From positions 49,531-113,530 of the forward strand of contig JAGWLB010000002.1 of NCBI GenBank assembly GCA_028865035.1: a stretch of DNA of 64,000 nucleotides, given 5' to 3'. Positions 1,362 to 58,714 of this stretch are shown here, piece by piece. Each line of letters starts with the position of its first letter. Position 1 is the first letter of the stretch. The position numbers and the translations under genes were made by a program. Below the pieces are notes generated by a model. It searched no databases. It was not told the DNA's origin and saw only the letters and a list, made by a program, of their open reading frames with translations. Source of the DNA: Patescibacteria group bacterium (lineage in GTDB: Bacteria > Patescibacteriota > Minisyncoccia > Phycocordibacterales > UBA9973).

Positions 1362-2390
1362 ATGCAACATATGTCACAACTTTATAGTAACTCAATCTTT
1401 TGGATAGATGTAGAAAAAATTAAACCAAATCCTTTTCAGCCTAGACGAGAATTTGATGAAGCACGTCTTCGTGACTTGGCTGATTCAATACGCCAGTATG
1501 GAGTGCTCCAGCCACTAACAGTCTCACGAATGGAAGTCCAAAGGGAAGACGGTGGCTTAGCCGTTGAGTATGAGTTGATTGCCGGTGAACGACGCTTGCG
1601 AGCTTCGAAAATTGCAGGTTTAGAGCAAGTTCCTGTGATTATTCGTGTTGGCGATGATAATATGGTGAAACTCGAACTTGCTATAATTGAGAATTTACAA
1701 AGAGAAGATTTGAACGCTGTAGAGCGTGCTCGTGCTTTCTTTCGTTTAGTTGAAGAATTTAAATTTACTCATAGTCAGATTGGGGCTAAAGTCGGGAAAA
1801 GCCGTGAACACGTTTCAAACACTTTAAGGTTATTAGCTTTACCTCAAGAGATTCTTGATGGTTTATCTGCCGGTAAAATTACTGAAGGTCATACACGTCC
1901 TATCCTTATGTTAGCTGATAGGCCTGAAGAACAAATGGTACTGTTTAAAGAAATAATGTTTAAGAAAATGACAGTTAGAGATGCAGAAAAGATTGCTCGT
2001 AAAATCGCCTTTGATCGTGTGCGTAAAAAGGAGTATATGCCTGACCCAGAGATAACAGAAATGGAAGATAAATTACAAGAAGCACTTGGTACTCGTGTTC
2101 ATATAGATCGTAAAGAGAATGGTGGACAGATAATGATTGATTTCTTTTCAAATGATGATTTACGTACTATCTTAGAATTATTAAAATCAAATCAAGATAA
2201 AAATCCAAATGAAATGCTAGAGAACTTTATTGCAGCTCAAAAGGATCAGGAGCAAGAAGTCGTTGGAGAAGTAGAAGGAGATACAACCGAAGATGATAAT
2301 ATACATCTTATAGATGATCGTACGCCCGAAGAAGTTGTTCAAGCTGAAGAAGATGTAGATTTGTACAATATTAAAAATTTCTCAATTTAA
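1362..2390 (+). CDS. parB: chromosome partitioning protein ParB (ParB/Spo0J/Noc family)
   Basis: ParB N-terminal box (IAGERRLRASKIAG) and a helix-turn-helix region (THSQIGAKVGKSREHVSNTLRLL); an acidic C-terminal tail. Confidence 0.85.
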   Translation: MQHMSQLYSNSIFWIDVEKIKPNPFQPRREFDEARLRDLADSIRQYGVLQPLTVSRMEVQREDGGLAVEYELIAGERRLRASKIAGLEQVPVIIRVGDDNMVKLELAIIENLQREDLNAVERARAFFRLVEEFKFTHSQIGAKVGKSREHVSNTLRLLALPQEILDGLSAGKITEGHTRPILMLADRPEEQMVLFKEIMFKKMTVRDAEKIARKIAFDRVRKKEYMPDPEITEMEDKLQEALGTRVHIDRKENGGQIMIDFFSNDDLRTILELLKSNQDKNPNEMLENFIAAQKDQEQEVVGEVEGDTTEDDNIHLIDDRTPEEVVQAEEDVDLYNIKNFSI

Positions 2391-3893: not shown

Positions 3894-6134
3894 TTATTTC
3901 TTTTTTACCTTTATATTTTCGCCTAGTTTATGAGGATTATGGTTTTTGCACATTTTATTCGAGCACCGCTCAGGTATCGTCTTCGTACCTTCCATCATAA
4001 GAGATTGACAATATGGACAGATGTTACCTGTGGGCTTGGCTTTAATTGCATTCTTACAATCTGGATAGTTACTGCAAGAATAGAATATTCCAAATCTTCC
4101 ACGACGTTCCATCATTTTACCTTTATTGCAAACTGGACAAGTGACATCAGTCATTTTCTTTTTCTTTTCTTCTTCATCTTCTTTTATAAATTTACATTTT
4201 GGGTATCGTGAACAAGAAACAAAAGCTCCGAACTTTCCTTGTCTTATTACTAGTTTTCCACCATGTACCTTTTTCTTTTTTTCTCCTGCCTGCGCAGGCA
4301 GGCCACAGAGTGGACACATTTCACCAGTTTCCTTTGGTCCCTCAAGCTCCAAACCTTCTATAGTACGAGCTCCATCACAGTCGGGGTAACGTGAACATGA
4401 ATAGAATTTACCATTACGAGCAAGTTTTATAATCATAGATGATCCACATTTAGGACAAATCATATCAGCAGGTGCTTCTCCCATATTTGTTGCTTTGGCT
4501 AATTTGTCTTTTTCCTTGATATCTTTCTGGAATGGAATATAAAAATCTTTTAGAGTTTTCACATATTCACGTTTACCATTTGCGATATCATCAAGCTCAT
4601 CTTCCATTTCAGCTGTAAAAGTATCACTTATATATTCAGCGAAATTATTCTCCAGAAAACTCGATACTACATCTCCGGTGTCAGTAGGGAAAAGAGTGCG
4701 ACCTTCTTTTGTAACATAGCCACGGTCTTCTATGGTACGCATTATAGATGCATAAGTACTTGGTCTACCGATACCTCGTGCTTCAAGTTCTTTTACCAAT
4801 CCTGCCTCACTGTATCTGTTTGGTGGTTCAGTGAACTTTTCTGTGTTTTTAAGTTCGAGTAGCTTTAATAGTGCACCGACTTCTACAAGTGGAAGCTCTA
4901 CATCATCACCACGTGCTTCACTATCGCATGCAAGCCATCCAGGAGATATCATTCTTGATCCATTCGCTGTGAAATCTGGTATATCAGCCGATTGAATATT
5001 TGCGATAATTTTTGTTTTCATAAGTTTTGCGTCTATCATTTGTGATGATACTGTGCGTTCCCATATAAGACGATACAATTTTTTCTGTTCATCGTTGGAT
5101 CCTTCATTCATAGACTCAATATGTGTCGGACGAATAGCTTCGTGTGCCTCCTGTGCATTTTTAGATTTAGTTTTATATACACGAAGCTCTACTTGGTCTT
5201 GACCATATTTTTTCTCTATAACTTTTTTAATTTGTTCTTGAGCAACCTTAGCAAGGTTTGTGCTGTCTGTACGCATATAAGTTATAAAACCAGCTTCGTA
5301 TAATTTTTGAGCAACTTGCATTGTTCTTGATGGTGAAAAACCTAAACGAGTACTTGCTGTTTGTTGTAGTGTTGATGTAGTGAATGGTGCGCGTGGGCTA
5401 CGTTTCTGCTCAGACGTTTTTATATCAGTGACAAACCATTTTTCTTTTTCTCCTTTTGTTAATATATTTTCTACAATTTTTTGGTCACGAGGTTCATCAA
5501 CACAAGTTAGTGTTAATTTTTCTTTTTTGGGTGTTTCAAATAATCCTTCAAGTGTCCAATATTGCTCTGGTACAAAAGCACGAATTTCGCGTTCACGTTC
5601 CATAATAATACGTAAAGCAGGGGATTGTACTCTTCCTGCTGATAGTCCATATCTTACTTTTTTCCAAATAATACCCGAGAGATCATATCCTACAAGTCTA
5701 TCAAGTACTCTTCGGGCTTCTTGTGCTTTACGCAGGTTTGTATCTATATCTCGGGGAGATTTCAATGCTTCCTCGACAGCTTCCTTTGTTATTTCATGAA
5801 AAGCCACTCTTTTAATAGGTGCTTTGATCTTACTATTGCTATGTAAGATTTCTTCTATATGCCAGGCGATTGCTTCTCCTTCACGGTCCGGGTCAGTTGC
5901 GAGCATTATCTCATTTGCTTTTAATGCTAAATCTGTCAATTCATTTACAACTTTTTCTTTACCTTTTGAAATTTCATAGTGTGGAACAAATCCACCAGGT
6001 ATATCAATTGCAGTTTTGTTAGATTTTGGTAAATCACGTATATGTCCGACAGATGCACGGACAGTAAAAGCTCCATCGAGATACTTCTCAATAGTTTTTG
6101 CTTTTGAAGGTGATTCAACAATTAATAATTTCAT
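3894..6134 (-). CDS. topA: DNA topoisomerase I with three C-terminal C4 zinc ribbons
   Basis: TOPRIM start MKLLIVESPSKAKTIEKYL; catalytic-core motifs; three CPxC...CxxxxC ribbons. The middle ribbon carries an extra LPAQAGEKKKKVHGG segment encoded by the palindrome at 4285..4302. Confidence 0.9.
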   Translation of the reverse strand: MKLLIVESPSKAKTIEKYLDGAFTVRASVGHIRDLPKSNKTAIDIPGGFVPHYEISKGKEKVVNELTDLALKANEIMLATDPDREGEAIAWHIEEILHSNSKIKAPIKRVAFHEITKEAVEEALKSPRDIDTNLRKAQEARRVLDRLVGYDLSGIIWKKVRYGLSAGRVQSPALRIIMEREREIRAFVPEQYWTLEGLFETPKKEKLTLTCVDEPRDQKIVENILTKGEKEKWFVTDIKTSEQKRSPRAPFTTSTLQQTASTRLGFSPSRTMQVAQKLYEAGFITYMRTDSTNLAKVAQEQIKKVIEKKYGQDQVELRVYKTKSKNAQEAHEAIRPTHIESMNEGSNDEQKKLYRLIWERTVSSQMIDAKLMKTKIIANIQSADIPDFTANGSRMISPGWLACDSEARGDDVELPLVEVGALLKLLELKNTEKFTEPPNRYSEAGLVKELEARGIGRPSTYASIMRTIEDRGYVTKEGRTLFPTDTGDVVSSFLENNFAEYISDTFTAEMEDELDDIANGKREYVKTLKDFYIPFQKDIKEKDKLAKATNMGEAPADMICPKCGSSMIIKLARNGKFYSCSRYPDCDGARTIEGLELEGPKETGEMCPLCGLPAQAGEKKKKVHGGKLVIRQGKFGAFVSCSRYPKCKFIKEDEEEKKKKMTDVTCPVCNKGKMMERRGRFGIFYSCSNYPDCKNAIKAKPTGNICPYCQSLMMEGTKTIPERCSNKMCKNHNPHKLGENIKVKKK
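4285..4302. repeat. 18-bp GC-rich perfect palindrome CCTGCCTGCGCAGGCAGG (21-mer shared with 13138..13158), in frame inside topA
   Basis: Exact 21-nt identity (CCTGCCTGCGCAGGCAGGCCA) with the copy inside intergenic repeat A1. GC-rich in an AT-rich genome. Encodes an insertion relative to the two sibling zinc ribbons. Confidence 0.7.
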
Positions 6135-12731: not shown

Positions 12732-13121
12732 ATGAAAAAAGAAATAAAATTCACAGCTCTATTTGTAAAAGACATAAAAGATTTATTAAAAAGATTCCCT
12801 CCTAAGCATAAGAAAATTTTTGGACATCATTCAACGATTGAATTTCAACCAACTAGTCTAGATGGCATAGAAATAGGAAAAGAATGCAGTATAAAAATAA
12901 TAGGACGAGCTTGGGATGAATTTGGAGATGACCTTCTTGTTGAAAATTTAAAATCTAAAAATAAATACCCCCACATAACCGTGTCCCGAGCAGATAATGC
13001 TCCACCACTGTACTCAAAAATACTATTTGAAAAAACTGATATAGAATACTTTGATAATGAAGAAGTTAGGGTTATTGAAGGATATTCAGATGGGAATAAG
13101 TATATTACACAGAACCTATAG
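12732..13121 (+). CDS. small 2H phosphoesterase superfamily protein (LigT/CPDase-like, two H-x-T/S-x motifs)
   Basis: The GHHSTIEF and PHITVSR motifs are spaced ~60 aa apart. The ORF track begins earlier (12498), inside the tRNA; the first plausible ATG after the duplicated tRNA 3' end is at 12732. Confidence 0.5.
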   Translation: MKKEIKFTALFVKDIKDLLKRFPPKHKKIFGHHSTIEFQPTSLDGIEIGKECSIKIIGRAWDEFGDDLLVENLKSKNKYPHITVSRADNAPPLYSKILFEKTDIEYFDNEEVRVIEGYSDGNKYITQNL

Positions 13122-13122
13122 C

Positions 13123-13216
13123 TGTTCCAACTTCATCCCTGCCTGCGCAGGCAGGCCAGACTGTAAGCCAATAATTTGCTATAATATTAACTTATGGAAA
13201 AGAAAATTATTGTTAT
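13123..13216 (+). repeat. intergenic direct repeat family A, copy 1 (carries an extended -10 TGCTATAAT and the first 8 codons MEKKIIVI of a Nudix-like gene start)
   Basis: Near-identity to 14531..14604 (GTTTCAACTTC...CAGAC.GTAAGCCAATAATTTGCTATAATA.TAACTTATGGAAAAGAAAATTATTGTTA). In this copy the palindrome CTGCCTGCGCAGGCAGG is inserted. Confidence 0.8.
13138..13155. repeat. second copy of the GC-rich palindrome CCTGCCTGCGCAGGCAGG, inserted in repeat A1
   Basis: Identical 21-mer to 4285..4305. It is absent from the otherwise homologous repeat copies A2 and A3. Confidence 0.7.
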
Positions 13217-13237
13217 AACTTCTGGTATAATATTAAA

Positions 13238-13876: not shown

Positions 13877-13881
13877 GAATT

Positions 13882-13910
13882 GTTTCAACTTCGCCTCAGA
13901 CGGTAAGCAA
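13882..13910 (+). repeat. repeat family A, partial copy 2 (GTTTCAACTTCGCCTCAGACGGTAAGCAA)
   Basis: Matches the 5' half of A1 and A3. Confidence 0.6.
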
Positions 13911-13966
13911 ATAAAAACCACCGGAAATAAATTTGGTGGTTTAATAGAAGTTTCATTCAAATAATT

Positions 13967-14452: not shown

Positions 14453-14530
14453 AATTTAACATTTTAATGGTTTATTTTATTGTTGGTTTTTCTTTACATT
14501 AACATTTACTACTTATTTGTCAACAATATC

Positions 14531-14604
14531 GTTTCAACTTCACCCCAGACGGTAAGCCAATAATTTGCTATAATACTAACTTATGGAAAAGAAAATTATT
14601 GTTA
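14531..14604 (+). repeat. repeat family A, copy 3 (contains the promoter and the start of the Nudix gene)
   Basis: Near-identical to A1. -10 TATAAT at 14569-14574, ATG at 14583, giving a leaderless-type arrangement. Confidence 0.8.
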
Positions 14605-15017
14605 GAGCTAGAGCTATTATTTTAAATAATAATAAATTACTAGTAGTAAAGCATTCACATGATTCGAGCTTCGCTGCTTTACCAGGGGGTCACCTTGAAT
14701 GGGGAGAAGATATCAAGGAATGTTTATCTAGAGAAATTGTAGAAGAACTTGGAATAAACCCTGAGATTGGAAGACTACTATATGTTAATAATTTTACAGA
14801 AAAAGATACTGAGCAATCAGTAGAATTTTTCTTTGAAGTTACAAATGGTTATGCGTATAAAGATTTTGAAAATCATACAAGAACACATGCATATGAACTT
14901 GCTGATATACTTTGGATAGAGCCTAACGATCTTGTGAACATTCTACCAAAAGAATTTGAAGAAGATTTTAAATTAGGGAAAATTATTTCTGATCAAGTAA
15001 GATATATACATTCTTAA
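14583..15017 (+). CDS. NUDIX hydrolase
   Basis: Nudix box GGHLEWGEDIKECLSREIVEELG. Confidence 0.8.
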   Translation: MEKKIIVRARAIILNNNKLLVVKHSHDSSFAALPGGHLEWGEDIKECLSREIVEELGINPEIGRLLYVNNFTEKDTEQSVEFFFEVTNGYAYKDFENHTRTHAYELADILWIEPNDLVNILPKEFEEDFKLGKIISDQVRYIHS

Positions 15018-20710: not shown

Positions 20711-20749
20711 TGAATAATAAAATCCCTTCAGATATCTGAAGGGATTTTA

Positions 20750-21796
20750 TTATTCTTCTGTTTGTGGTTTTTCTAAGGTTAAATTTTCTATTTCTATTGC
20801 TTCTCCAGTTATTCTCATTACATCTTTGTCTATTTTTCTAAATTCGTGATTTGATTTATTGAAATGATTCACTGTAGTAGCTATAGAATTACCAAGCTTC
20901 TGGTGAACTTCTTCGTATACCCTTAGGTGATTACCAAGCTCACCAACACGTTTGATAATATCTTTAGCACTTTCTTCTATTTGTAGAGCTTTAAGGCCTT
21001 GTAAGACAGTTTGTAAGTAAGCAAGAAATGAAGTCGGGGAAACAATTATAACTTTATATTTACCGGCAGCACGCTGTATGAGGTTCTCATTATCGTCTGT
21101 AACCGCTCCAATTTTATTTATTAGTAAATCATAATAGATTGCCTCATGAGGTATAAACATAAAAGCGAAATCCATAGTGCCTTCCTCGGGTTGTATGTAT
21201 TTTGAAGTTTCTATAATACGATTCTTTAAATCATTTACAAATATTTTTTCTAAACGATCTTTTTCTTGTTTATCATTTGTTTCCGAAATACGATTATAAT
21301 TCTCAAGTGAGAATTTTGAATCAATAGGAATAACTTTATCTTTTACAAATACTGCAGCATCAACAATAGTGCCATCTGGGAAAGGGTACTGCATCTGGTA
21401 AGATCCTGGAGGCATAACATTCTTTAAAAGTGTCTCTAAATAATATTCTCCAAGTATGCCACGCTGTTTTGGATTCTTTAGGACATCTTGTAGGTTCTGT
21501 AGTTGATCTGCGAAAGATACGACTTGCTTATTTGTCTCGTCGAGCCTTGTTATCTTCTCGGTGATATCAGCAATGATACGAGAAGTTTCACTCGATTGAT
21601 AACGCATTGTCTGATTGATTTCTTTTTGTGATTCGCCAAGTTTATTGTCTATCGTACGAGAAAGCTCATTTATCTGAGCAAGAAGCATTTGCATAGCTCC
21701 ATCATTCTGTTCAATTGGTTTCTTTTTTAAAGCAGAAAATAATCCAATAATAAGAGCTACTAGTATTAAAAGGAATATAATTATAACTGCGTTCAT
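20750..21796 (-). CDS. rmuC: DNA recombination protein RmuC
   Basis: N-terminal TM helix, a coiled coil, and a C-terminal RmuC domain (VIPIDSKFSLENY). Confidence 0.7.
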   Translation of the reverse strand: MNAVIIIFLLILVALIIGLFSALKKKPIEQNDGAMQMLLAQINELSRTIDNKLGESQKEINQTMRYQSSETSRIIADITEKITRLDETNKQVVSFADQLQNLQDVLKNPKQRGILGEYYLETLLKNVMPPGSYQMQYPFPDGTIVDAAVFVKDKVIPIDSKFSLENYNRISETNDKQEKDRLEKIFVNDLKNRIIETSKYIQPEEGTMDFAFMFIPHEAIYYDLLINKIGAVTDDNENLIQRAAGKYKVIIVSPTSFLAYLQTVLQGLKALQIEESAKDIIKRVGELGNHLRVYEEVHQKLGNSIATTVNHFNKSNHEFRKIDKDVMRITGEAIEIENLTLEKPQTEE

Positions 21797-27105: not shown

Positions 27106-28643
<1,538 letters not shown>

Positions 28644-30897: not shown

Positions 30898-31318
30898 GGT
30901 TTGTATTGGATAGATGCGTTCACTTTATTGTGAATGAGGAAAGTCCGAACACATATCATTGAGCAACCTGCATGCGCAGGCATGTCAATGAAAGCGTAGT
31001 GGGTAATACCCATCGTGAGTAATCATAGAGGTGCGAGCAGTGACGTCTATAATCGAAAGAGAATAGATAACCTGTACCCTTGTATGTCTGGAATTTTTCA
31101 GACAGAAACTCGGATAAGTTCAGCAGGTTAATACAGAAGATATAAAAGGGTATTTGAAGCTTCTGAGTGAAACGGCTAAATCCTTACGTGTGTGCAAGAC
31201 CGTGCTTTGACTTCTGTCAAAGAGAGTCGCTTGAGCCTTTGTGTAAATAAAGGCCTAGATAAATATCTATCGTCTGCTTTAAAACAGATACAGAATTCGG
31301 CTTATAAATACAAATCAA
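30898..31318 (+). ncRNA. rnpB: RNase P RNA (bacterial type)
   Basis: P4 strands GAGGAAAGTCCGAAC and ACAGAATTCGGCTTATA; P1 pairing TTTGTAT/ATACAAA; terminator hairpin at 31325-31356. Confidence 0.85.
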
Positions 31319-31435
31319 GATATGAAAAACACCTTGTCCAAAGCAAGGTGTTTTTCATATCTACCAGATCAATTTTAGTAAATTCAAATTTCTATTATTT
31401 GAAAATTATTAAAATTAGTTTTTTATATAAATAAC

Positions 31436-43709: not shown

Positions 43710-43741
43710 ACTCTTCCGAACATCCTCCCAGGTTTGGAGCC
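43710..43741 (+). repeat. cassette-associated inverted repeat, copy 1 (ACTCTTCCGAACATCCTCCCAGGTTTGGAGCC)
   Basis: Half-sites CCGAAC/GTTYGG separated by 10 bp, immediately upstream of the promoter of 43809. Confidence 0.75.
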
Positions 43742-43808
43742 ATACTTGACAAATTACTTTATATATTATATTTTAGAGTTAAATTGTTAAACTAAAAATT
43801 GAATAATT

Positions 43809-44312
43809 ATGAAAAAAGTTTTTCTTGTTCTTTTAATAACATACTCAATAGTATGTACAGGTTATATTATTTATCTAAAGTCACCTCTCAATGACCATGG
43901 GCATAGACTCTACGGAGTTAAGAATCCAAAAACTATGTTAGTTTTAGATTCAATATTCCGTGATGTAGCTAACCTTCATAGGGATTTGGTCTTTAAGGTT
44001 GGACCGAGTACTCAGGCAATTTACGACAACGGCAGAGTTGGCTTAAATTATATAAGCGACTCAACAGTGGATCTTCCATTATCTGGGCCCAGCTTCGTTG
44101 TCAGTAATCCAGAAGAATCAGCACAAAAAGCCGCTAGGATTCTAACCCGAAATGGATTTAATGCCAGAATTATTGTTAATTTTGACTCAACTTTATCCAA
44201 TAAATTAGTTTTACTTCAAAGTAACTCTATTAATTGGACACTTGTTTTTAGAAGAGATATTCTAAATATGGGCAAGAAACCAAAAGACATAGGTTTCGGA
44301 TGGGCAAAATGA
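43809..44312 (+). CDS. hypothetical membrane-anchored protein (167 aa)
   Basis: N-terminal TM helix; terminator hairpin at 44341-44370. Confidence 0.45.
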   Translation: MKKVFLVLLITYSIVCTGYIIYLKSPLNDHGHRLYGVKNPKTMLVLDSIFRDVANLHRDLVFKVGPSTQAIYDNGRVGLNYISDSTVDLPLSGPSFVVSNPEESAQKAARILTRNGFNARIIVNFDSTLSNKLVLLQSNSINWTLVFRRDILNMGKKPKDIGFGWAK

Positions 44313-44389
44313 TTTTCAAAAAAAGATGATTTTTTTATTGAAGGAATCGTGTAACAACGATTCCTTTTTTATTTATCCATATCAACCAA

Positions 44390-44421
44390 ACTCTTCCGAA
44401 CATCCTCCCAGGTTCGGAGCC
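44390..44421 (+). repeat. cassette-associated inverted repeat, copy 2 (ACTCTTCCGAACATCCTCCCAGGTTCGGAGCC)
   Basis: 31/32 identical to copy 1; perfect CCGAAC-N10-GTTCGG. Confidence 0.8.
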
Positions 44422-44477
44422 TAAATTTTAATTTGATTTGTAAGAGGAAAATTGTATAATTAAAGAAAACTTTAGTA

Positions 44478-45125
44478 ATGGAATTAAATGTATCAAAACA
44501 GTATTATGAATCACTTGATTATACTGCCATTTCTTTAATAGAAACCGTTACCCGTTTTAATACTAATTGTGGAAGTATTAACAATATTATATCGACAGAA
44601 GATAACTTTCCTTTGAAAAGGAATCCGGGAGCTAATATTGAAGATTGGAATGGTTTTTTTGTTTCTCGTAATTTTAGATTTTTATTGAAGCTAAATTGTT
44701 TTGGAAAGATAATGGAAATTCCTTACCACAAAAATATTAGCACCCTAATTAGTTGTGCTAGATATGATGAAAAGTTTAATAATGTGGTAATAAATAATGA
44801 TTATTGTCTTAGAAAAGCCAATTTTCTGAAGTCAGTAACAAACCATCAGCTTTTTGGATATCTGTTTTCTAAATCAAATGAGCTATCAATAATGACACTG
44901 GACGATATCAGTTTCCTGTGGATGATTCTAAGTACACTCCTATTTCATGAAAATTTGCTAAATCATGGAGAATGGTGCCACAACGTATTTATGGGTTGGA
45001 AAAGAAATAGTCCTTTAATAGTTCAGAGAATTGGAAAATTATGGCATCTTTCAAATGATGAATTTTATCCTGAACATTCGTATCATGTAAAAGATGAAAC
45101 ATTATTTTTCCCGGTTATCAAGTGA
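44478..45125 (+). CDS. hypothetical protein (215 aa)
   Basis: Promoter TTGATT-N16-TATAAT upstream; terminator at 45131-45172. Confidence 0.45.
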   Translation: MELNVSKQYYESLDYTAISLIETVTRFNTNCGSINNIISTEDNFPLKRNPGANIEDWNGFFVSRNFRFLLKLNCFGKIMEIPYHKNISTLISCARYDEKFNNVVINNDYCLRKANFLKSVTNHQLFGYLFSKSNELSIMTLDDISFLWMILSTLLFHENLLNHGEWCHNVFMGWKRNSPLIVQRIGKLWHLSNDEFYPEHSYHVKDETLFFPVIK

Positions 45126-45277
45126 TTATAAAGACACCATTTTATTTAACGGTGTCTTTTTAATAATATCTAGAACATTTTCCAATCTTTTCTTAATTTT
45201 ATTCCAATTAGAATTCTGAACTTGTCCACTAAAGCGAGCCAGATAGATTCTCGTTAAAGTTTTGATATAATAAACTT

Positions 45278-45832
45278 ATGAGAAAAATAATTGTACAAGA
45301 AATGATTAGTGTTGATGGATTTTTTGCTGGAGAAAACGGTGAAATAGATTGGCATAATGTGGATGCCGAATTTAATAAATATGCTATTGAATTTCTTAAT
45401 ACCATAGATTCTTTGTTGTTTGGCCGCATTACTTATGAACTCATGGCAAGTTATTGGCCTACAGAAGCTGCTTTAAATGATGACCAAATCGTTGCTTCTA
45501 AAATGAATAATCTTTCGAAAATTGTTTTTTCTAAAACCAGGAATATATTAGAATGGAATAACTCAAAAGTGTTTTCTGAAATTAATGCAGAAGAAATAAA
45601 AAAATTAAAACAAACTGAAGGTAAGGATATTGCCATATTTGGCAGTGGTACTATTGTATCTGAACTTACCAAACTAAGATTAATTGATGAGTATCGGCTT
45701 ATTGTAAATCCTATAGTTCTTGGTAAGGGTAAGTCATTATTTTCATATATAGAAAAAAGATACAAGTTACAGCTCGTAAAAGTAGAAAAGTTTAAATCAG
45801 GAAATGTTTCCCTTCACTACAGTCTTTTATAG
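45278..45832 (+). CDS. dihydrofolate reductase-like (RibD C-terminal domain family)
   Basis: MRKIIVQEMISVDGFFAGENGEIDWH start and a DHFR-like fold pattern. Confidence 0.6.
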   Translation: MRKIIVQEMISVDGFFAGENGEIDWHNVDAEFNKYAIEFLNTIDSLLFGRITYELMASYWPTEAALNDDQIVASKMNNLSKIVFSKTRNILEWNNSKVFSEINAEEIKKLKQTEGKDIAIFGSGTIVSELTKLRLIDEYRLIVNPIVLGKGKSLFSYIEKRYKLQLVKVEKFKSGNVSLHYSLL

Positions 45833-45862
45833 AATCAATAAGGGTTAAGAACATTTAATAAT

Positions 45863-45893
45863 ACTCTTCCGAACATAATCCAAGGTTTGGATC
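45863..45893 (+). repeat. cassette-associated inverted repeat, copy 3 (ACTCTTCCGAACATAATCCAAGGTTTGGATC)
   Basis: Conserved half-sites and 10-bp spacer length; the spacer sequence diverges. Confidence 0.7.
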
Positions 45894-45929
45894 TTGTTAA
45901 TTTTGTAGTAGAGATGTTATATTTCTATC

Positions 45930-46403
45930 ATGGAAGAAAGAGATACAGAAGGAGCTTTTAGATGGATTGTAAATATAATTAAAAAACATAATATACCTTT
46001 TCAGATAAAAGGTGGTTTTGCTTCACGTCTATATGGAGTAAAAAGGGAACTGGCTGATATTGATATATCTATCCCAGAGAATAGATTTGATGAATTAATT
46101 CCTGAAATAAAAGAGTTTATTGTATATGGACCAGAACAATATTTAGATGATGAATGGGATATAAAACTCATAACTCTAACTTACAAAAATCAGGATATAG
46201 ATATAGCAGGAGCATATAAAAAGAAAAACTTTGATAAGATGAACCAGAAATGGGTAAATATACCGACTAACTTTGATACTAGTGTGTATATGGATGTATA
46301 TGGTTTAAATGTACCAGTGATTTCTAAGACAGACCTAATAAATTACAAGAAACTCATTCAAAGAGATGTAGATATATTTGATATTAATGCTTTAAGTAAG
46401 TAA
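45930..46403 (+). CDS. small nucleotidyltransferase-fold protein resembling lincosamide (Lnu) or aminoglycoside nucleotidyltransferases
   Basis: IKGGFASRLYGVKRELADIDISIP parallels Lnu WLDGGWGVDVLTG...HRDIDIDFD; 157 aa. Confidence 0.45.
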   Translation: MEERDTEGAFRWIVNIIKKHNIPFQIKGGFASRLYGVKRELADIDISIPENRFDELIPEIKEFIVYGPEQYLDDEWDIKLITLTYKNQDIDIAGAYKKKNFDKMNQKWVNIPTNFDTSVYMDVYGLNVPVISKTDLINYKKLIQRDVDIFDINALSK

Positions 46404-46408
46404 CTTAA

Positions 46409-46438
46409 TATTCTTCAGAACATAGTCTCAGAATTGTA
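46409..46438 (+). repeat. degenerate fourth copy of the cassette repeat
   Basis: TATTCTTCAGAACATAGTCTCAGAATTG, about 60% identical to the others. Confidence 0.35.
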
Positions 46439-46516
46439 GTTTAGTGAATTTGTAAACGTTATTAATTTTAAATAAGTACTTACATATATGTAAACTTTTA
46501 TGATATAGTCATTGTT

Positions 46517-58396: not shown

Positions 58397-58714
58397 ATAA
58401 TAGTATTTATTAATTTCTCTAATAAAATCGACTTTTATTTATAATATACTGTCACAAAATAGAAATGAGCTTCATGCTGCCTAACACGTATATTATAAAA
58501 CTATAGTCAAATAAAGTCATCTGTTATTGATATATCATAGGATATTTTTTGATTTATTAAAATGTTCATATTTATATTGATATATTTTACACATAATAGG
58601 TAATATAAAATTTTTTATCCATAATATTGACAACATAATTGTTGCCACAGATATAGAGGTATGCTAAAAGAAAAATTCCTATTAATAGGAATTTTTCTTT
58701 TAGCATACCTTGTA

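What the first reader, a model, noticed from the sequence alone, without database searches (positions are those of the whole stretch)
4285..4305. Identical 21-bp GC-rich palindrome inserted in frame in topA and into an intergenic repeat, with a relative in rnpB
CCTGCCTGCGCAGGCAGGCCA occurs at 4285-4305 inside topA and at 13138-13158 inside repeat A1. In topA it adds LPAQAGE... to the middle zinc ribbon, a segment the two sibling ribbons lack. Sister repeat copies A2 and A3 have CCCCAGACGG in place of the palindrome, so it looks like a discrete insertion. rnpB carries CCTGCATGCGCAGGCATG (16/18, with compensatory A..T for C..G) in a peripheral hairpin at about 30949-30966. In-frame palindromic mini-insertions into genes recall Rickettsia palindromic elements, but at a far smaller size.
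Basis: seen in the sequence. Interest (0 to 1): 0.6.

Follow-up and report, generated by a model that had tools for sequence, protein, structure and literature searches.

The report
Mini palindrome shed by nuclease cassette
An 18-base palindrome pasted into a topoisomerase gene, the RNase P RNA gene and a promoter repeat of this ultra-small (candidate-phyla) bacterium is the fused pair of ends of a nuclease-carrying mobile cassette that inserts in frame inside genes of many bacteria and that I could not find described.

Summary
CCTGCCTGCGCAGGCAGG ("P") is a clean 18-bp insertion in topA (4285-4302) and in promoter repeat A1 (13138-13155). A copy with 2 mismatches sits in rnpB at 30967-30984, not at 30949-30966. 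Orthologues or paralogues lack exactly 18 bases at all three sites.

P is not local. It has no target-site duplication, a purine|pyrimidine flank preference, and is stop-free in all six frames. In genes it is read as LPAQAG in 56 of 78 cases.

P equals the two 9-nt termini of a 282-bp in-frame cassette (CCTGCCTGCGCCGCG…CGCGGCAGGCAGG). The cassette encodes a 94-residue GIY-YIG nuclease bounded by LPAPRPG…GRxRQAG and is embedded in at least 33 host protein families. Intermediate forms of 30, 33, 39 and 51 nt exist.

The nuclease is 41% identical to an Ssn-type nuclease. Ssn enzymes are site-specific single-stranded DNases whose genes are flanked by hairpin repeats (PMC11893778).

Best reading: P is the ORF-less minimal hairpin derivative of this cassette family. 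Mobilisation in trans is inferred, not shown. I rate it a new variant of a known kind, of high interest.

The parts
4285..4302 (.). Exact copy of the 18-bp palindrome P inside topA. It is read on the minus strand as (G)LPAQAG.
   Evidence: Empty site in orthologue L121 and in 98/120 orthologues.
3894..6134 (-). Host gene topA (746 aa). P splits the Gly codon after CPLCG of the second C-terminal zinc ribbon.
   Evidence: 100% identical to P0001, annotated type I DNA topoisomerase of a Patescibacteria MAG.
13138..13155 (.). Exact copy of P in the intergenic promoter-type repeat A1.
13117..13237 (+). Repeat A1, the host of the second copy. It carries a TATAAT-like box and the start of a duplicated MEKKIIV ORF.
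13879..13914 (+). Repeat A2, an empty site (…CTTCGCC|TCAGACGG…, between 13895 and 13896).
14528..14626 (+). Repeat A3, an empty site (…CTTCACC|CCAGACGG…, about 14544|14545, ambiguous by 2 nt because of the C run).
30967..30984 (+). Decayed copy of P (CCTGCATGCGCAGGCATG, 2 mismatches) in rnpB. It is inserted after the GCAA loop of the hairpin CATTGA…TCAATG.
30898..31320 (+). Host gene rnpB (bacterial class A RNase P RNA).
   Evidence: Orthologues L152:1181-1534, L153:3841-4190 and L154:5169-5490.

Best explanation
P (CCTGCCTGCGCAGGCAGG) is the minimal, ORF-less member of a family of mobile elements. The full-length form is a 282-bp cassette with inverted ends, CCTGCCTGC-GCCGCG… and …CGCG-GCAGGCAGG. 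It encodes a 94-residue single-domain GIY-YIG nuclease and has no start or stop codon of its own. It sits in frame inside host genes.

Shown:
- P equals the outer 9 + 9 nt of the cassette.
- Cassette and P share the same insertion geometry: between the 2nd and 3rd base of an NNY codon, LPA…QAG frame, no target duplication.
- A length series exists: 282/285, 51, 47, 44, 39, 33, 30 and 18 nt.
- All three window copies are clean 18-nt insertions.
- P copies decay by point substitution.
- P survives in coding DNA mostly in the LPAQAG frame. It can survive because it is 3n long and stop-free in all six frames.

Inferred:
- P arises by loss of the cassette interior, by deletion between the GC/GCGC microhomologies of the two ends or by abortive copying.
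- P is then propagated as a hairpin recognised on single-stranded DNA by a cognate Ssn-like GIY-YIG nuclease, either cassette-borne or one of the free-standing 80-95-aa homologues common in Patescibacteria. The nuclease would cut at the foot of the hairpin, and host functions would rejoin the DNA.
- Insertion would favour single-stranded or hairpin-loop DNA.
- At topA the element also spreads between lineages by short homologous-recombination tracts.
For: Insertion status:
- topA.
- A1.
- rnpB.
- dus and a second topA site in relatives.

Dispersal:
- 125 exact sites in 120 genome loci, about 70 of them from named Patescibacteria lineages, with unrelated flanks.
- 25 viral-contig loci.
- Flank -1 is a purine in 80% and +1 a pyrimidine in 77% of sites, and this holds in non-coding DNA too. 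There is no target-site duplication.

Coding filter:
- 78/125 sites lie in ORFs of at least 150 codons.
- Frames are 56 LPAQAG, 14 PACAGR and 8 CLRRQ, against 26.6, 19.7 and 31.7 expected from R|Y targeting alone (p = 5e-12).

Link to the cassette:
- The hsdR gene of L070 carries a full cassette, a 39-nt form and a plain P.
- L155, L158, L241 and L269 give 282- or 285-nt elements with the same termini.
- About 44 close homologues are bounded by D|LPAPRPG…GR(T/A)RQAG.
- An exhaustive search gave 335 representatives at E<=1e-10. In the best 150, nearly all 150-1100 aa long, the match starts at LPA and ends at QAG.
- 33 Pfam host families are hit, and HsdS accounts for 45 of 89 proteins.
- The residue before LPA is mostly D, G or N for both P and the cassette.
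- The cassette is present in a Patescibacteria Ogt protein.

Nuclease kinship:
- 41% identity (E 4e-14) to an Azospirillum GIY-YIG gene flanked on both sides by NTS-like hairpins.
- Ssn enzymes are hairpin-directed ssDNA nucleases with an IS-like repeat-gene-repeat layout (PMC11893778).

Hairpin-loop targeting:
- 4/125 sites lie at the centre of palindromes of at least 5 bp per arm, against about 0.1 expected.
- Further examples are the rnpB loop, tRNA D-arm fragments and NTS-like hairpins.

Decay:
- L151 has 1 and L148 has 3 synonymous changes. rnpB has 2 changes.
Against: - No cassette and no GIY-YIG gene lies in the 64-kb window.
- None of 120 topA orthologues has a full cassette at the P site.
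- In the mostly-Patescibacteria genome loci that carry P, only one full cassette was seen, in a WOR-3 MAG.
- GIY-YIG nucleases are hydrolytic. No strand-transfer activity is known for them, so 'mobilisation' needs unshown host steps.
- At topA, P is always linked to a downstream block (EKKKKV[HY]GG, against KKGK[SN]GGG in empty alleles). That is evidence of spread by recombination rather than by re-insertion.
- P is 18/18 identical between lineages with saturated synonymous flanks. Neutral decay does not predict this.
- P does not match the published SRM search pattern: 0/156 sites, against 4 hits in the Azospirillum positive control.
- No biochemical data exist.
Confidence: 0.7

Rival explanations
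1. P is only a scar. Each copy marks a site where a full cassette once sat and was then deleted down to its ends. P itself never moves.
For: - The size series 282 > 51 > 39 > 33 > 30 > 18 exists.
- The same site carries a 47-nt form in L172 and a 30-nt form in L221.
- A cassette, a 39-mer and an 18-mer occur in one gene.
- GC/GCGC microhomology at the ends would give exactly P.
Against: - No cassette or intermediate is seen at the topA, rnpB, dus or A1 sites among 120 + 3 orthologues.
- In the P-selected genome loci, about 70 of 120 from Patescibacteria, exact P copies greatly outnumber cassettes.
- P occurs in places where a 282-bp insertion would destroy function, such as the rnpB hairpin loop.
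Confidence: 0.2
2. P is kept because it is a functional DNA site: a binding site for a conserved protein, a DNA-uptake or transformation-control signal like DUS or NTS, or a parS-like site. Its spread reflects selection or biased uptake, not transposition.
For: - P is 18/18 conserved while flanking synonymous sites differ.
- The topA allele carrying P is patchy and moves with a short linked block.
- No canonical parS lies in the window although parB is present.
- In Neisseria, NTS hairpins with SsnA modulate transformation (PMC11893778).
Against: - Every copy examined is a discrete 18-nt indel, which point mutation or biased uptake cannot create.
- Copies decay.
- The identity with the cassette ends is not explained.
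Confidence: 0.08
3. P is a REP- or MITE-like repeat mobilised by an unrelated transposase (RAYT/IS200-IS605 Y1 or a DDE enzyme). Its match to the cassette ends arises because the cassette inserted into P.
For: - P is a short GC-rich hairpin repeat without a target-site duplication, as with IS200/IS605 and REP elements.
- A homing-type gene sitting in the centre of its own palindromic target is a known theme.
Against: - No transposase family recurs within 1.5 kb of P in 120 loci.
- The cassette's inverted ends extend beyond P's halves (about 15-20 nt), and intermediates keep those extensions.
- P has no GTAG or CGTC tag.
- P lies mostly inside genes.
Confidence: 0.04
4. P is an assembly or sequencing artefact.
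For: P is a perfect palindrome, and most sources are metagenome assemblies.
Against: - The same in-frame insertion occurs in independent assemblies from different studies.
- Copies show synonymous decay and frame selection.
- P is present in isolate genomes, Litoribacter and Rosettibacter.
Confidence: 0.01

Closest known systems
Ssn nucleases with NTS/SRM hairpin repeats (Chenal et al. 2025, PMC11893778)
   Same: - The nuclease is a single-domain GIY-YIG protein of about 94 aa.
- The gene is bracketed by hairpin-forming inverted repeats in an IS-like layout.
- Many ORF-less hairpin copies are dispersed in the genome.
- The cassette nuclease is 41% identical to an SRM-flanked Azospirillum homologue.
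   Different: - Here the two arms of one hairpin bracket the gene.
- The unit has no start or stop codon and sits in frame inside host genes.
- The repeats are mostly intragenic, whereas only 2% of NTS copies lie in genes.
- The repeat is an 18-bp perfect palindrome that fails the SRM pattern.
- The main hosts of P are Patescibacteria, which that paper does not mention.
Rickettsia palindromic elements (RPE)
   Same: - They are palindromic selfish repeats.
- They insert in frame into protein genes and into RNA genes.
- They are tolerated as extra peptide segments.
   Different: - RPEs are about 100-150 bp, against 18 bp for P (my knowledge).
- RPEs are restricted to Rickettsia and relatives (my knowledge).
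- No coding parent has been described for RPEs, and there is no sequence similarity to P (my knowledge).
- The Ssn paper lists Rickettsia among SRM-rich genomes.
MITEs (miniature inverted-repeat transposable elements)
   Same: They are non-autonomous derivatives made of the ends of an autonomous element, produced by loss of the interior.
   Different: - MITEs derive from DDE transposons.
- They make target-site duplications.
- They are usually more than 50 bp long and intergenic.
- P has no duplication, is 18 bp, and its parent encodes a GIY-YIG nuclease.
REP elements and RAYT transposases
   Same: They are short GC-rich hairpin repeats paired with a small nuclease that acts on single-stranded hairpins.
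   Different: - REPs are extragenic.
- They carry GTAG or CGTC tags (PMC3733652).
- They are lineage-specific and depend on HUH Y1 enzymes.
Inteins and other in-frame homing-endonuclease insertions
   Same: A nuclease-encoding selfish element is inserted in frame in conserved host proteins.
   Different: - The cassette has no Hint splicing domain or splice-junction residues, so it presumably stays in the mature protein.
- It has inverted DNA ends and miniature derivatives.
GC clusters and byp elements of yeast mitochondria
   Same: They are small GC-rich palindromes scattered through an AT-rich genome, including coding and rRNA genes.
   Different: - They are organellar (my knowledge).
- They have different sequences and some make target duplications (my knowledge).
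- Byp elements are bypassed by the ribosome rather than translated (my knowledge).

Membership tests
Ssn / SRM system | Nuclease is a single-domain GIY-YIG protein of about 94 aa of the cd10448 clade | tested here: inconclusive
   The cassette is 94 codons and matches Pfam GIY-YIG only. It is 41% identical (E 4e-14) to an Azospirillum gene flanked by NTS-like hairpins. A CDD cd10448 assignment could not be run. The nearest PDB entries are UPF0213 proteins.
Ssn / SRM system | Repeat matches the SRM pattern HGTCWY…RNCYNB | tested here: not met
   0 of 156 P sites (±25 nt) and 0 cassette ends match. The Azospirillum control locus gives 4 matches.
Ssn / SRM system | Hairpin repeats flank the nuclease gene on both sides | tested here: met
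   Inverted ends bracket the nuclease coding region in L070, L155, L158, L241 and L269. They are the two arms of one hairpin rather than two separate hairpins.
Ssn / SRM system | Site-specific cleavage of single-stranded DNA next to the hairpin | not testable with these tools
   This needs biochemistry. The only indirect hint is that P inserts into hairpin loops and palindrome centres.
Rickettsia palindromic elements | 100-150-bp element of the RPE sequence families | tested here: not met
   P is 18 bp. The longest relatives are the 282-bp coding cassettes.
Rickettsia palindromic elements | In-frame insertion in ORFs and insertion in RNA genes | tested here: met
   topA, dus, sod and mur genes, among others, and rnpB.
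MITE | Target-site duplication flanking terminal inverted repeats | tested here: not met
   89/125 sites have no flanking direct repeat and the remainder are 1-3 nt matches at chance level. The empty and filled sites differ by exactly 18 nt.
MITE | Derived from the ends of an autonomous element | tested here: met
   P is the outer 9 + 9 nt of the cassette, and intermediates of 30-51 nt exist.
REP / RAYT | Extragenic location, a GTAG or CGTC tag, and an associated Y1 transposase | tested here: not met
   62% of sites lie in ORFs of at least 150 codons. No conserved flank extends beyond one base. No recurrent transposase lies nearby.
Intein | Hint domain with Cys/Ser/Thr at the N-terminal junction and His-Asn followed by Cys/Ser/Thr at the C-terminal junction | tested here: not met
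   The cassette begins with LPAPRPG and ends with RQAG. The next residue is variable: G, A, E or V. GIY-YIG is the only Pfam family shared by all 89 proteins scanned, and no Hint or intein family is among the 25 most frequent families listed.
parS / DNA-uptake-type functional site | Arises by point substitution, with high density or origin-proximal clustering | tested here: not met
   All copies are discrete indels. Three exact copies were found among the fetched loci of a 598-kb scaffold, at 41, 151 and 344 kb.

The most novel reading that the evidence does not exclude
An Ssn-like GIY-YIG nuclease acts as the mobility enzyme of a previously unrecognised class of bacterial mobile elements. These elements have no start or stop codon of their own and are expressed only as an internal domain of the invaded protein. 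They make no target-site duplication and are targeted to single-stranded or hairpin-loop DNA. They shrink to an 18-bp perfect palindrome that is still propagated. That would be the smallest mobile DNA element known, spread across Patescibacteria and into Bacteroidota, WOR-3 and Proteobacteria.
Probability: 0.3. Interest if true: 0.95.

Novelty: new variant of a known kind. Interest (0 to 1): 0.8.

Why it matters
- It explains a recurrent six-residue insert (LPAQAG, PACAGR) and odd hairpins in proteins and RNAs of candidate-phyla bacteria. These would otherwise be read as lineage-specific features or errors.
- It links those inserts to a nuclease cassette found inside hundreds of unrelated proteins, especially type I restriction specificity subunits.
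- It extends the newly described Ssn/hairpin-repeat systems to a form that lives inside coding sequence.
- It gives a concrete, testable pair: an 18-nt hairpin and a 94-residue nuclease. The pair bears on an open question raised by the Ssn authors, namely whether repeat-ssn-repeat units are mobile elements and how their repeats multiply.
- Such a pair could also serve as a tool for cutting single-stranded DNA.

Tried and rejected
- **Literature.** The 18-mer and LPAQAG appear in no paper. LPAPRP appears in two unrelated papers. Several GIY-YIG/in-frame/palindrome queries gave nothing relevant. Only the Ssn paper is close.
- **Known RNAs.** Rfam finds no family at P sites in Bacteroidota or tRNA-Gln loci.
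- **parS.** There is no canonical parS in the window, and P's dispersed positions argue against a parS role.
- **Neighbour enrichment.** No enzyme family recurs within 1.5 kb of P in more than 5 of 120 loci. The small GIY-YIG genes are common but not tightly linked: 8 of about 154 loci, 4 of them within 500 nt of P.
- **Phage source.** Only 25 viral contigs carry P.
- **Telomerase-like addition.** I considered addition of (CCTG)n at breaks and dropped it. The predicted 16-mer is absent, and the cassette ends explain the sequence.
- **Other palindromes.** P is the only GC-rich perfect palindrome of at least 14 bp in the window.
- **Metagenome scan.** The left-end 15-mer returned mostly GC-rich chance hits. 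About 25 of 120 loci were informative.
- **Plasmids.** tblastn of the cassette found only the Azospirillum Ssn-like gene.
- **Source contig.** The window's own topA product is not on record in the contig index, so the rest of the source contig could not be read.
Full report
**1. The observation**

The window has about 33% G+C. Its 16S rRNA gene stands alone, and its proteins match Patescibacteria MAGs. The topA and secA products are 100% identical to NCBI proteins of a 'Patescibacteria group bacterium' on a 115,856-bp contig.

The 21-mer CCTGCCTGCGCAGGCAGGCCA is exact at 4285-4305 and 13138-13158. A 3-mismatch relative lies at 30967-30987. None was expected in shuffles. Only the first 18 bases form a perfect palindrome, which I call P. 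P is the only GC-rich perfect palindrome of at least 14 bp in the window.

**2. All three copies are clean 18-nt insertions**

- **topA (3894-6134, minus strand).** The gene reads TGT GG[C CTG CCT GCG CAG GCA GG]A GAA. Removing P restores a Gly codon. The syntenic relative L121 (72% nucleotide identity in the BLAST segment spanning topA) reads TGT GGA GAT AAG at that place.
- **topA orthologues.** Of 120 orthologues at 80-100% identity, 98 are empty (CPLCG[ED]KKGK[SN]GGG). Seven carry LPAQAG. About eight carry decayed-looking versions: LPAQTGE, LPQPEGK, [LV]P[SA]PAGQ and TPSPEGV.
- **Repeat A1.** A1 carries P where its paralogues A2 and A3 have an 18-column gap.
- **rnpB.** rnpB (30898-31320; RF00010, 93.6 bits, just below the gathering score) was compared with three orthologues. 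I fetched these through SecA homologues. They lack exactly 18 nt. In the window the insertion follows the GCAA loop of the hairpin CATTGA…TCAATG.
The proposed compensatory A..T pair is not in the palindrome register and is not used in the predicted fold.
- **Further indels in relatives.** L149 has dus …GFPAYAGRDG… where the window has …GF|DG…. There is also a second topA site, D|IPDF.

**3. P is a widely dispersed element**

It returned 120 loci with 125 sites.
- By record titles, about 70 loci come from many Patescibacteria classes: WWE3, Microgenomates, Gottesman-, Woese-, Shapiro-, Beckwith- and Dojkabacteria, Saccharibacteria, Paceibacteria, Kaiser-, Nomura-, Uhr- and Magasanikbacteria, and others.
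- About 15 come from Bacteroidota. The rest come from low-GC 'Gammaproteobacteria' MAGs, WOR-3 and Ignavibacteriota, plus a few GC-rich genomes that may be chance hits.
- Flanks are unrelated and show no target-site duplication.
- Only the adjacent base is biased: a purine at -1 (80%) and a pyrimidine at +1 (77%). This holds in non-coding sites too.
- Four sites lie at the exact centre of pre-existing palindromes of 5-14 bp per arm, against about 0.1 expected.
- Others lie in tRNA D-arm fragments or NTS-like hairpins.
- Among copies not selected by the search pattern, exact and one-mismatch copies predominate.

**4. Life inside genes**

P is 18 nt long and has no stop codon in any frame. Its two strands are identical.

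- 78 of 125 sites lie in ORFs of at least 150 codons.
- The frames are 56 LPAQAG, 14 PACAGR and 8 CLRRQ.
- The R|Y preference alone predicts 26.6, 19.7 and 31.7 (p = 5e-12). The peptide is therefore under selection.
- In the favoured frame P splits an NNY codon. That keeps the original residue (mostly D, G or N) and adds LPAQA-G.
- P sits in loops and termini of SOD, Mur ligase, a NUDIX-like protein (L022), NusB (L103) and the S16 tail.

**5. The parent element**

I searched for isolated half-sites. This revealed an hsdR gene in L070 (a WOR-3 MAG) that carries three things in frame: a plain P, a 39-nt form (CCTGCCTGCGCCGCAAAGTGAAGCGGCGCGGCAGGCAGG, read as LPAPQSEAARQAG), and a GIY-YIG domain bracketed by CCTGCCTGC-GCCGCGCCCCGG… and …CCGCGGCGCG-GCAGGCAGG.

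- **Homologues.** Close homologues of that domain are bounded by D|LPAPRPG…GR(T/A)RQAG. They sit inside Ogt, HsdR, HsdS, MsrB, TrmD and DUF899 proteins. More distant hits are free-standing proteins of 79-100 aa from Patescibacteria without those boundaries.
- **DNA termini.** The DNA of L155 (an Ogt fusion) and L158 shows an element of exactly 282 nt, CCTGCCTGCGCCGCG…CGCGGCAGGCAGG. L241 (282 nt) and L269 (285 nt) agree.
- **Exhaustive search.** An HMMER search over 1.84 billion representatives found 335 proteins at E<=1e-10. In the best 150, nearly all 150-1100 aa long, the match begins at LPA and ends at QAG.
- **Host families.** 33 Pfam host families are hit. Type I specificity subunits make up 45 of 89 proteins.
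- **Size series.** Forms of 30, 33 (seven cases), 39, 44, 47 and 51 nt keep longer pieces of both ends. One site carries 47 nt in one contig and 30 nt in another.
- **P from the cassette.** P is exactly the outer 9 + 9 nt. Deletion between the GC of …CTGC|GC… and the GC of …CGCG|GC AGG… yields P.
- **Presence in Patescibacteria.** The cassette exists there too: Ogt protein MEK7143449.1.

**6. Kinship of the nuclease**

The cassette matches only Pfam GIY-YIG. Its nearest solved structures are UPF0213 proteins.

It is 41% identical (E 4e-14) to a 97-aa Azospirillum gene lying between sufB and sufC. That gene is flanked on both sides by CGTCATCCCCGCGAAGGCGGGGATCC hairpins. This is the layout described for Ssn nucleases. 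Ssn enzymes are 94-aa single-domain GIY-YIG proteins that bind hairpin repeats (NTS/SRM) on single-stranded DNA and cut beside them. Their authors call the NTS-ssnA-NTS layout 'identical to' insertion sequences (PMC11893778).

That paper does not mention in-frame insertion or candidate phyla. P fails its SRM search pattern. I therefore treat Ssn/SRM as the closest known system, not as the family of P.

**7. Mechanism: what is shown and what is inferred**

Shown:
- the insertions;
- the identity of P with the cassette ends;
- the shared geometry;
- the size series;
- decay of copies;
- selection on reading frame.

Inferred:
- P is generated by loss of the cassette interior.
- P is then propagated as a hairpin on single-stranded DNA by a cognate GIY-YIG nuclease, with host rejoining.
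- Loops of other hairpins are preferred targets.

Points against, or left open:
- No nuclease gene lies in the window.
- No cassette is seen at P sites.
- GIY-YIG enzymes are not known to join DNA.
- At topA, P is strictly linked to a downstream block (EKKKKV[HY]GG). These alleles are scattered over the tree among empty ones. At that site P therefore spreads by short recombination tracts rather than by re-insertion.
- P stays 18/18 identical in four lineages with saturated synonymous flanks, whereas L151 and L148 have 1 and 3 synonymous changes. I could not decide whether homogenisation, selection or re-insertion keeps it intact.

**8. Verdict**

The finding is real. It points to a phylum-spanning family of in-frame palindromic insertions derived from a GIY-YIG cassette.

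Within the searchable literature I found no description of the 18-mer, its peptide or the cassette. That library is incomplete.

I rate it a new variant of a known kind (hairpin repeats paired with Ssn-type nucleases; selfish in-frame palindromes), of high interest.

Noticed in passing
L027:1660-2110, L110:385-820 (minus), L037:3465-4020, L038:6700-6920 (minus), L042:300-490: There is a recurrent locus in Paceibacteria-type genomes. It has the first ~25 nt of tRNA-Gln with P inserted between nt 10 and 11, then a small GIY-YIG ORF (HNH in L037, none in L042 and L038), then an intact tRNA-Gln. It looks like a homing-endonuclease gene parked at a tRNA gene, with P in the duplicated target.
   Followed up: partly
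window 4225-4365 (topA) and orthologues P0001-P0120: The P-bearing topA alleles always carry EKKKKV[HY]GG just downstream, and empty alleles always carry KKGK[SN]GGG. Yet P alleles are scattered across the topA tree. This two-haplotype block seems to move by short recombination tracts.
   Followed up: partly
L149:11152-11169 and proteins P0021, P0013, P0014 (topA residue ~385; window equivalent about 4975-4985): There is a second independent P insertion site in topA (D|IPDF). It is intact as DLPAQAGQAG in P0021 and decayed to DLSAQAD in L149. The window is empty there.
   Followed up: partly
window 30898-31320: Besides P, the window's rnpB has about 53 extra nt in two blocks relative to three orthologues (alignment columns ~176-202 and ~242-269, in the P12 region). 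It scores below Rfam's gathering threshold (93.6 against 100).
   Followed up: no
window 27106-28643: The 16S rRNA gene has a 39-nt insertion near its 5' end relative to the Rfam model and no adjacent 23S gene. It reads GGAGCGGTAATAC where most bacteria have GCCGCGGTAATAC.
   Followed up: no
window 1362-2390 and whole window: A parB gene is present, but no canonical parS (TGTTTCACGTGAAACA, up to 3 mismatches) occurs anywhere in the 64 kb.
   Followed up: partly
window 43710-46441: There is a direct-repeat family of 32 nt (ACTCTTCCGAACATCCTCCCAGGTTTGGAGCC) in four copies within 2.7 kb. Its nature was not examined.
   Followed up: no
window 20712-20755 and 58657-58710: Two long AT-rich perfect palindromes (44 and 54 bp) are probably bidirectional terminators. 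They are unrelated to P.
   Followed up: no
L076:7920-7975, L145:5600-5670, L072:5930-5990: P sits inside NTS-like hairpins (GTCATTCC…GGAATC) in some Gammaproteobacteria-labelled and viral contigs. One hairpin repeat family has therefore inserted into another.
   Followed up: no
proteins P0328-P0468: Half of the full-length cassettes sit in type I restriction specificity subunits (HsdS). Many are at the same conserved C-terminal site, …DPND|EPAS…. Whether this reflects homing at that site or a function in restriction systems is open.
   Followed up: no
proteins P0241, P0242, P0245: Some cassettes are read in another frame at their ends (ACL[LP]RR…RRQV instead of LPAPRP…RQAG). This implies 1-nt offsets between the ends and the nuclease core.
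   Followed up: no
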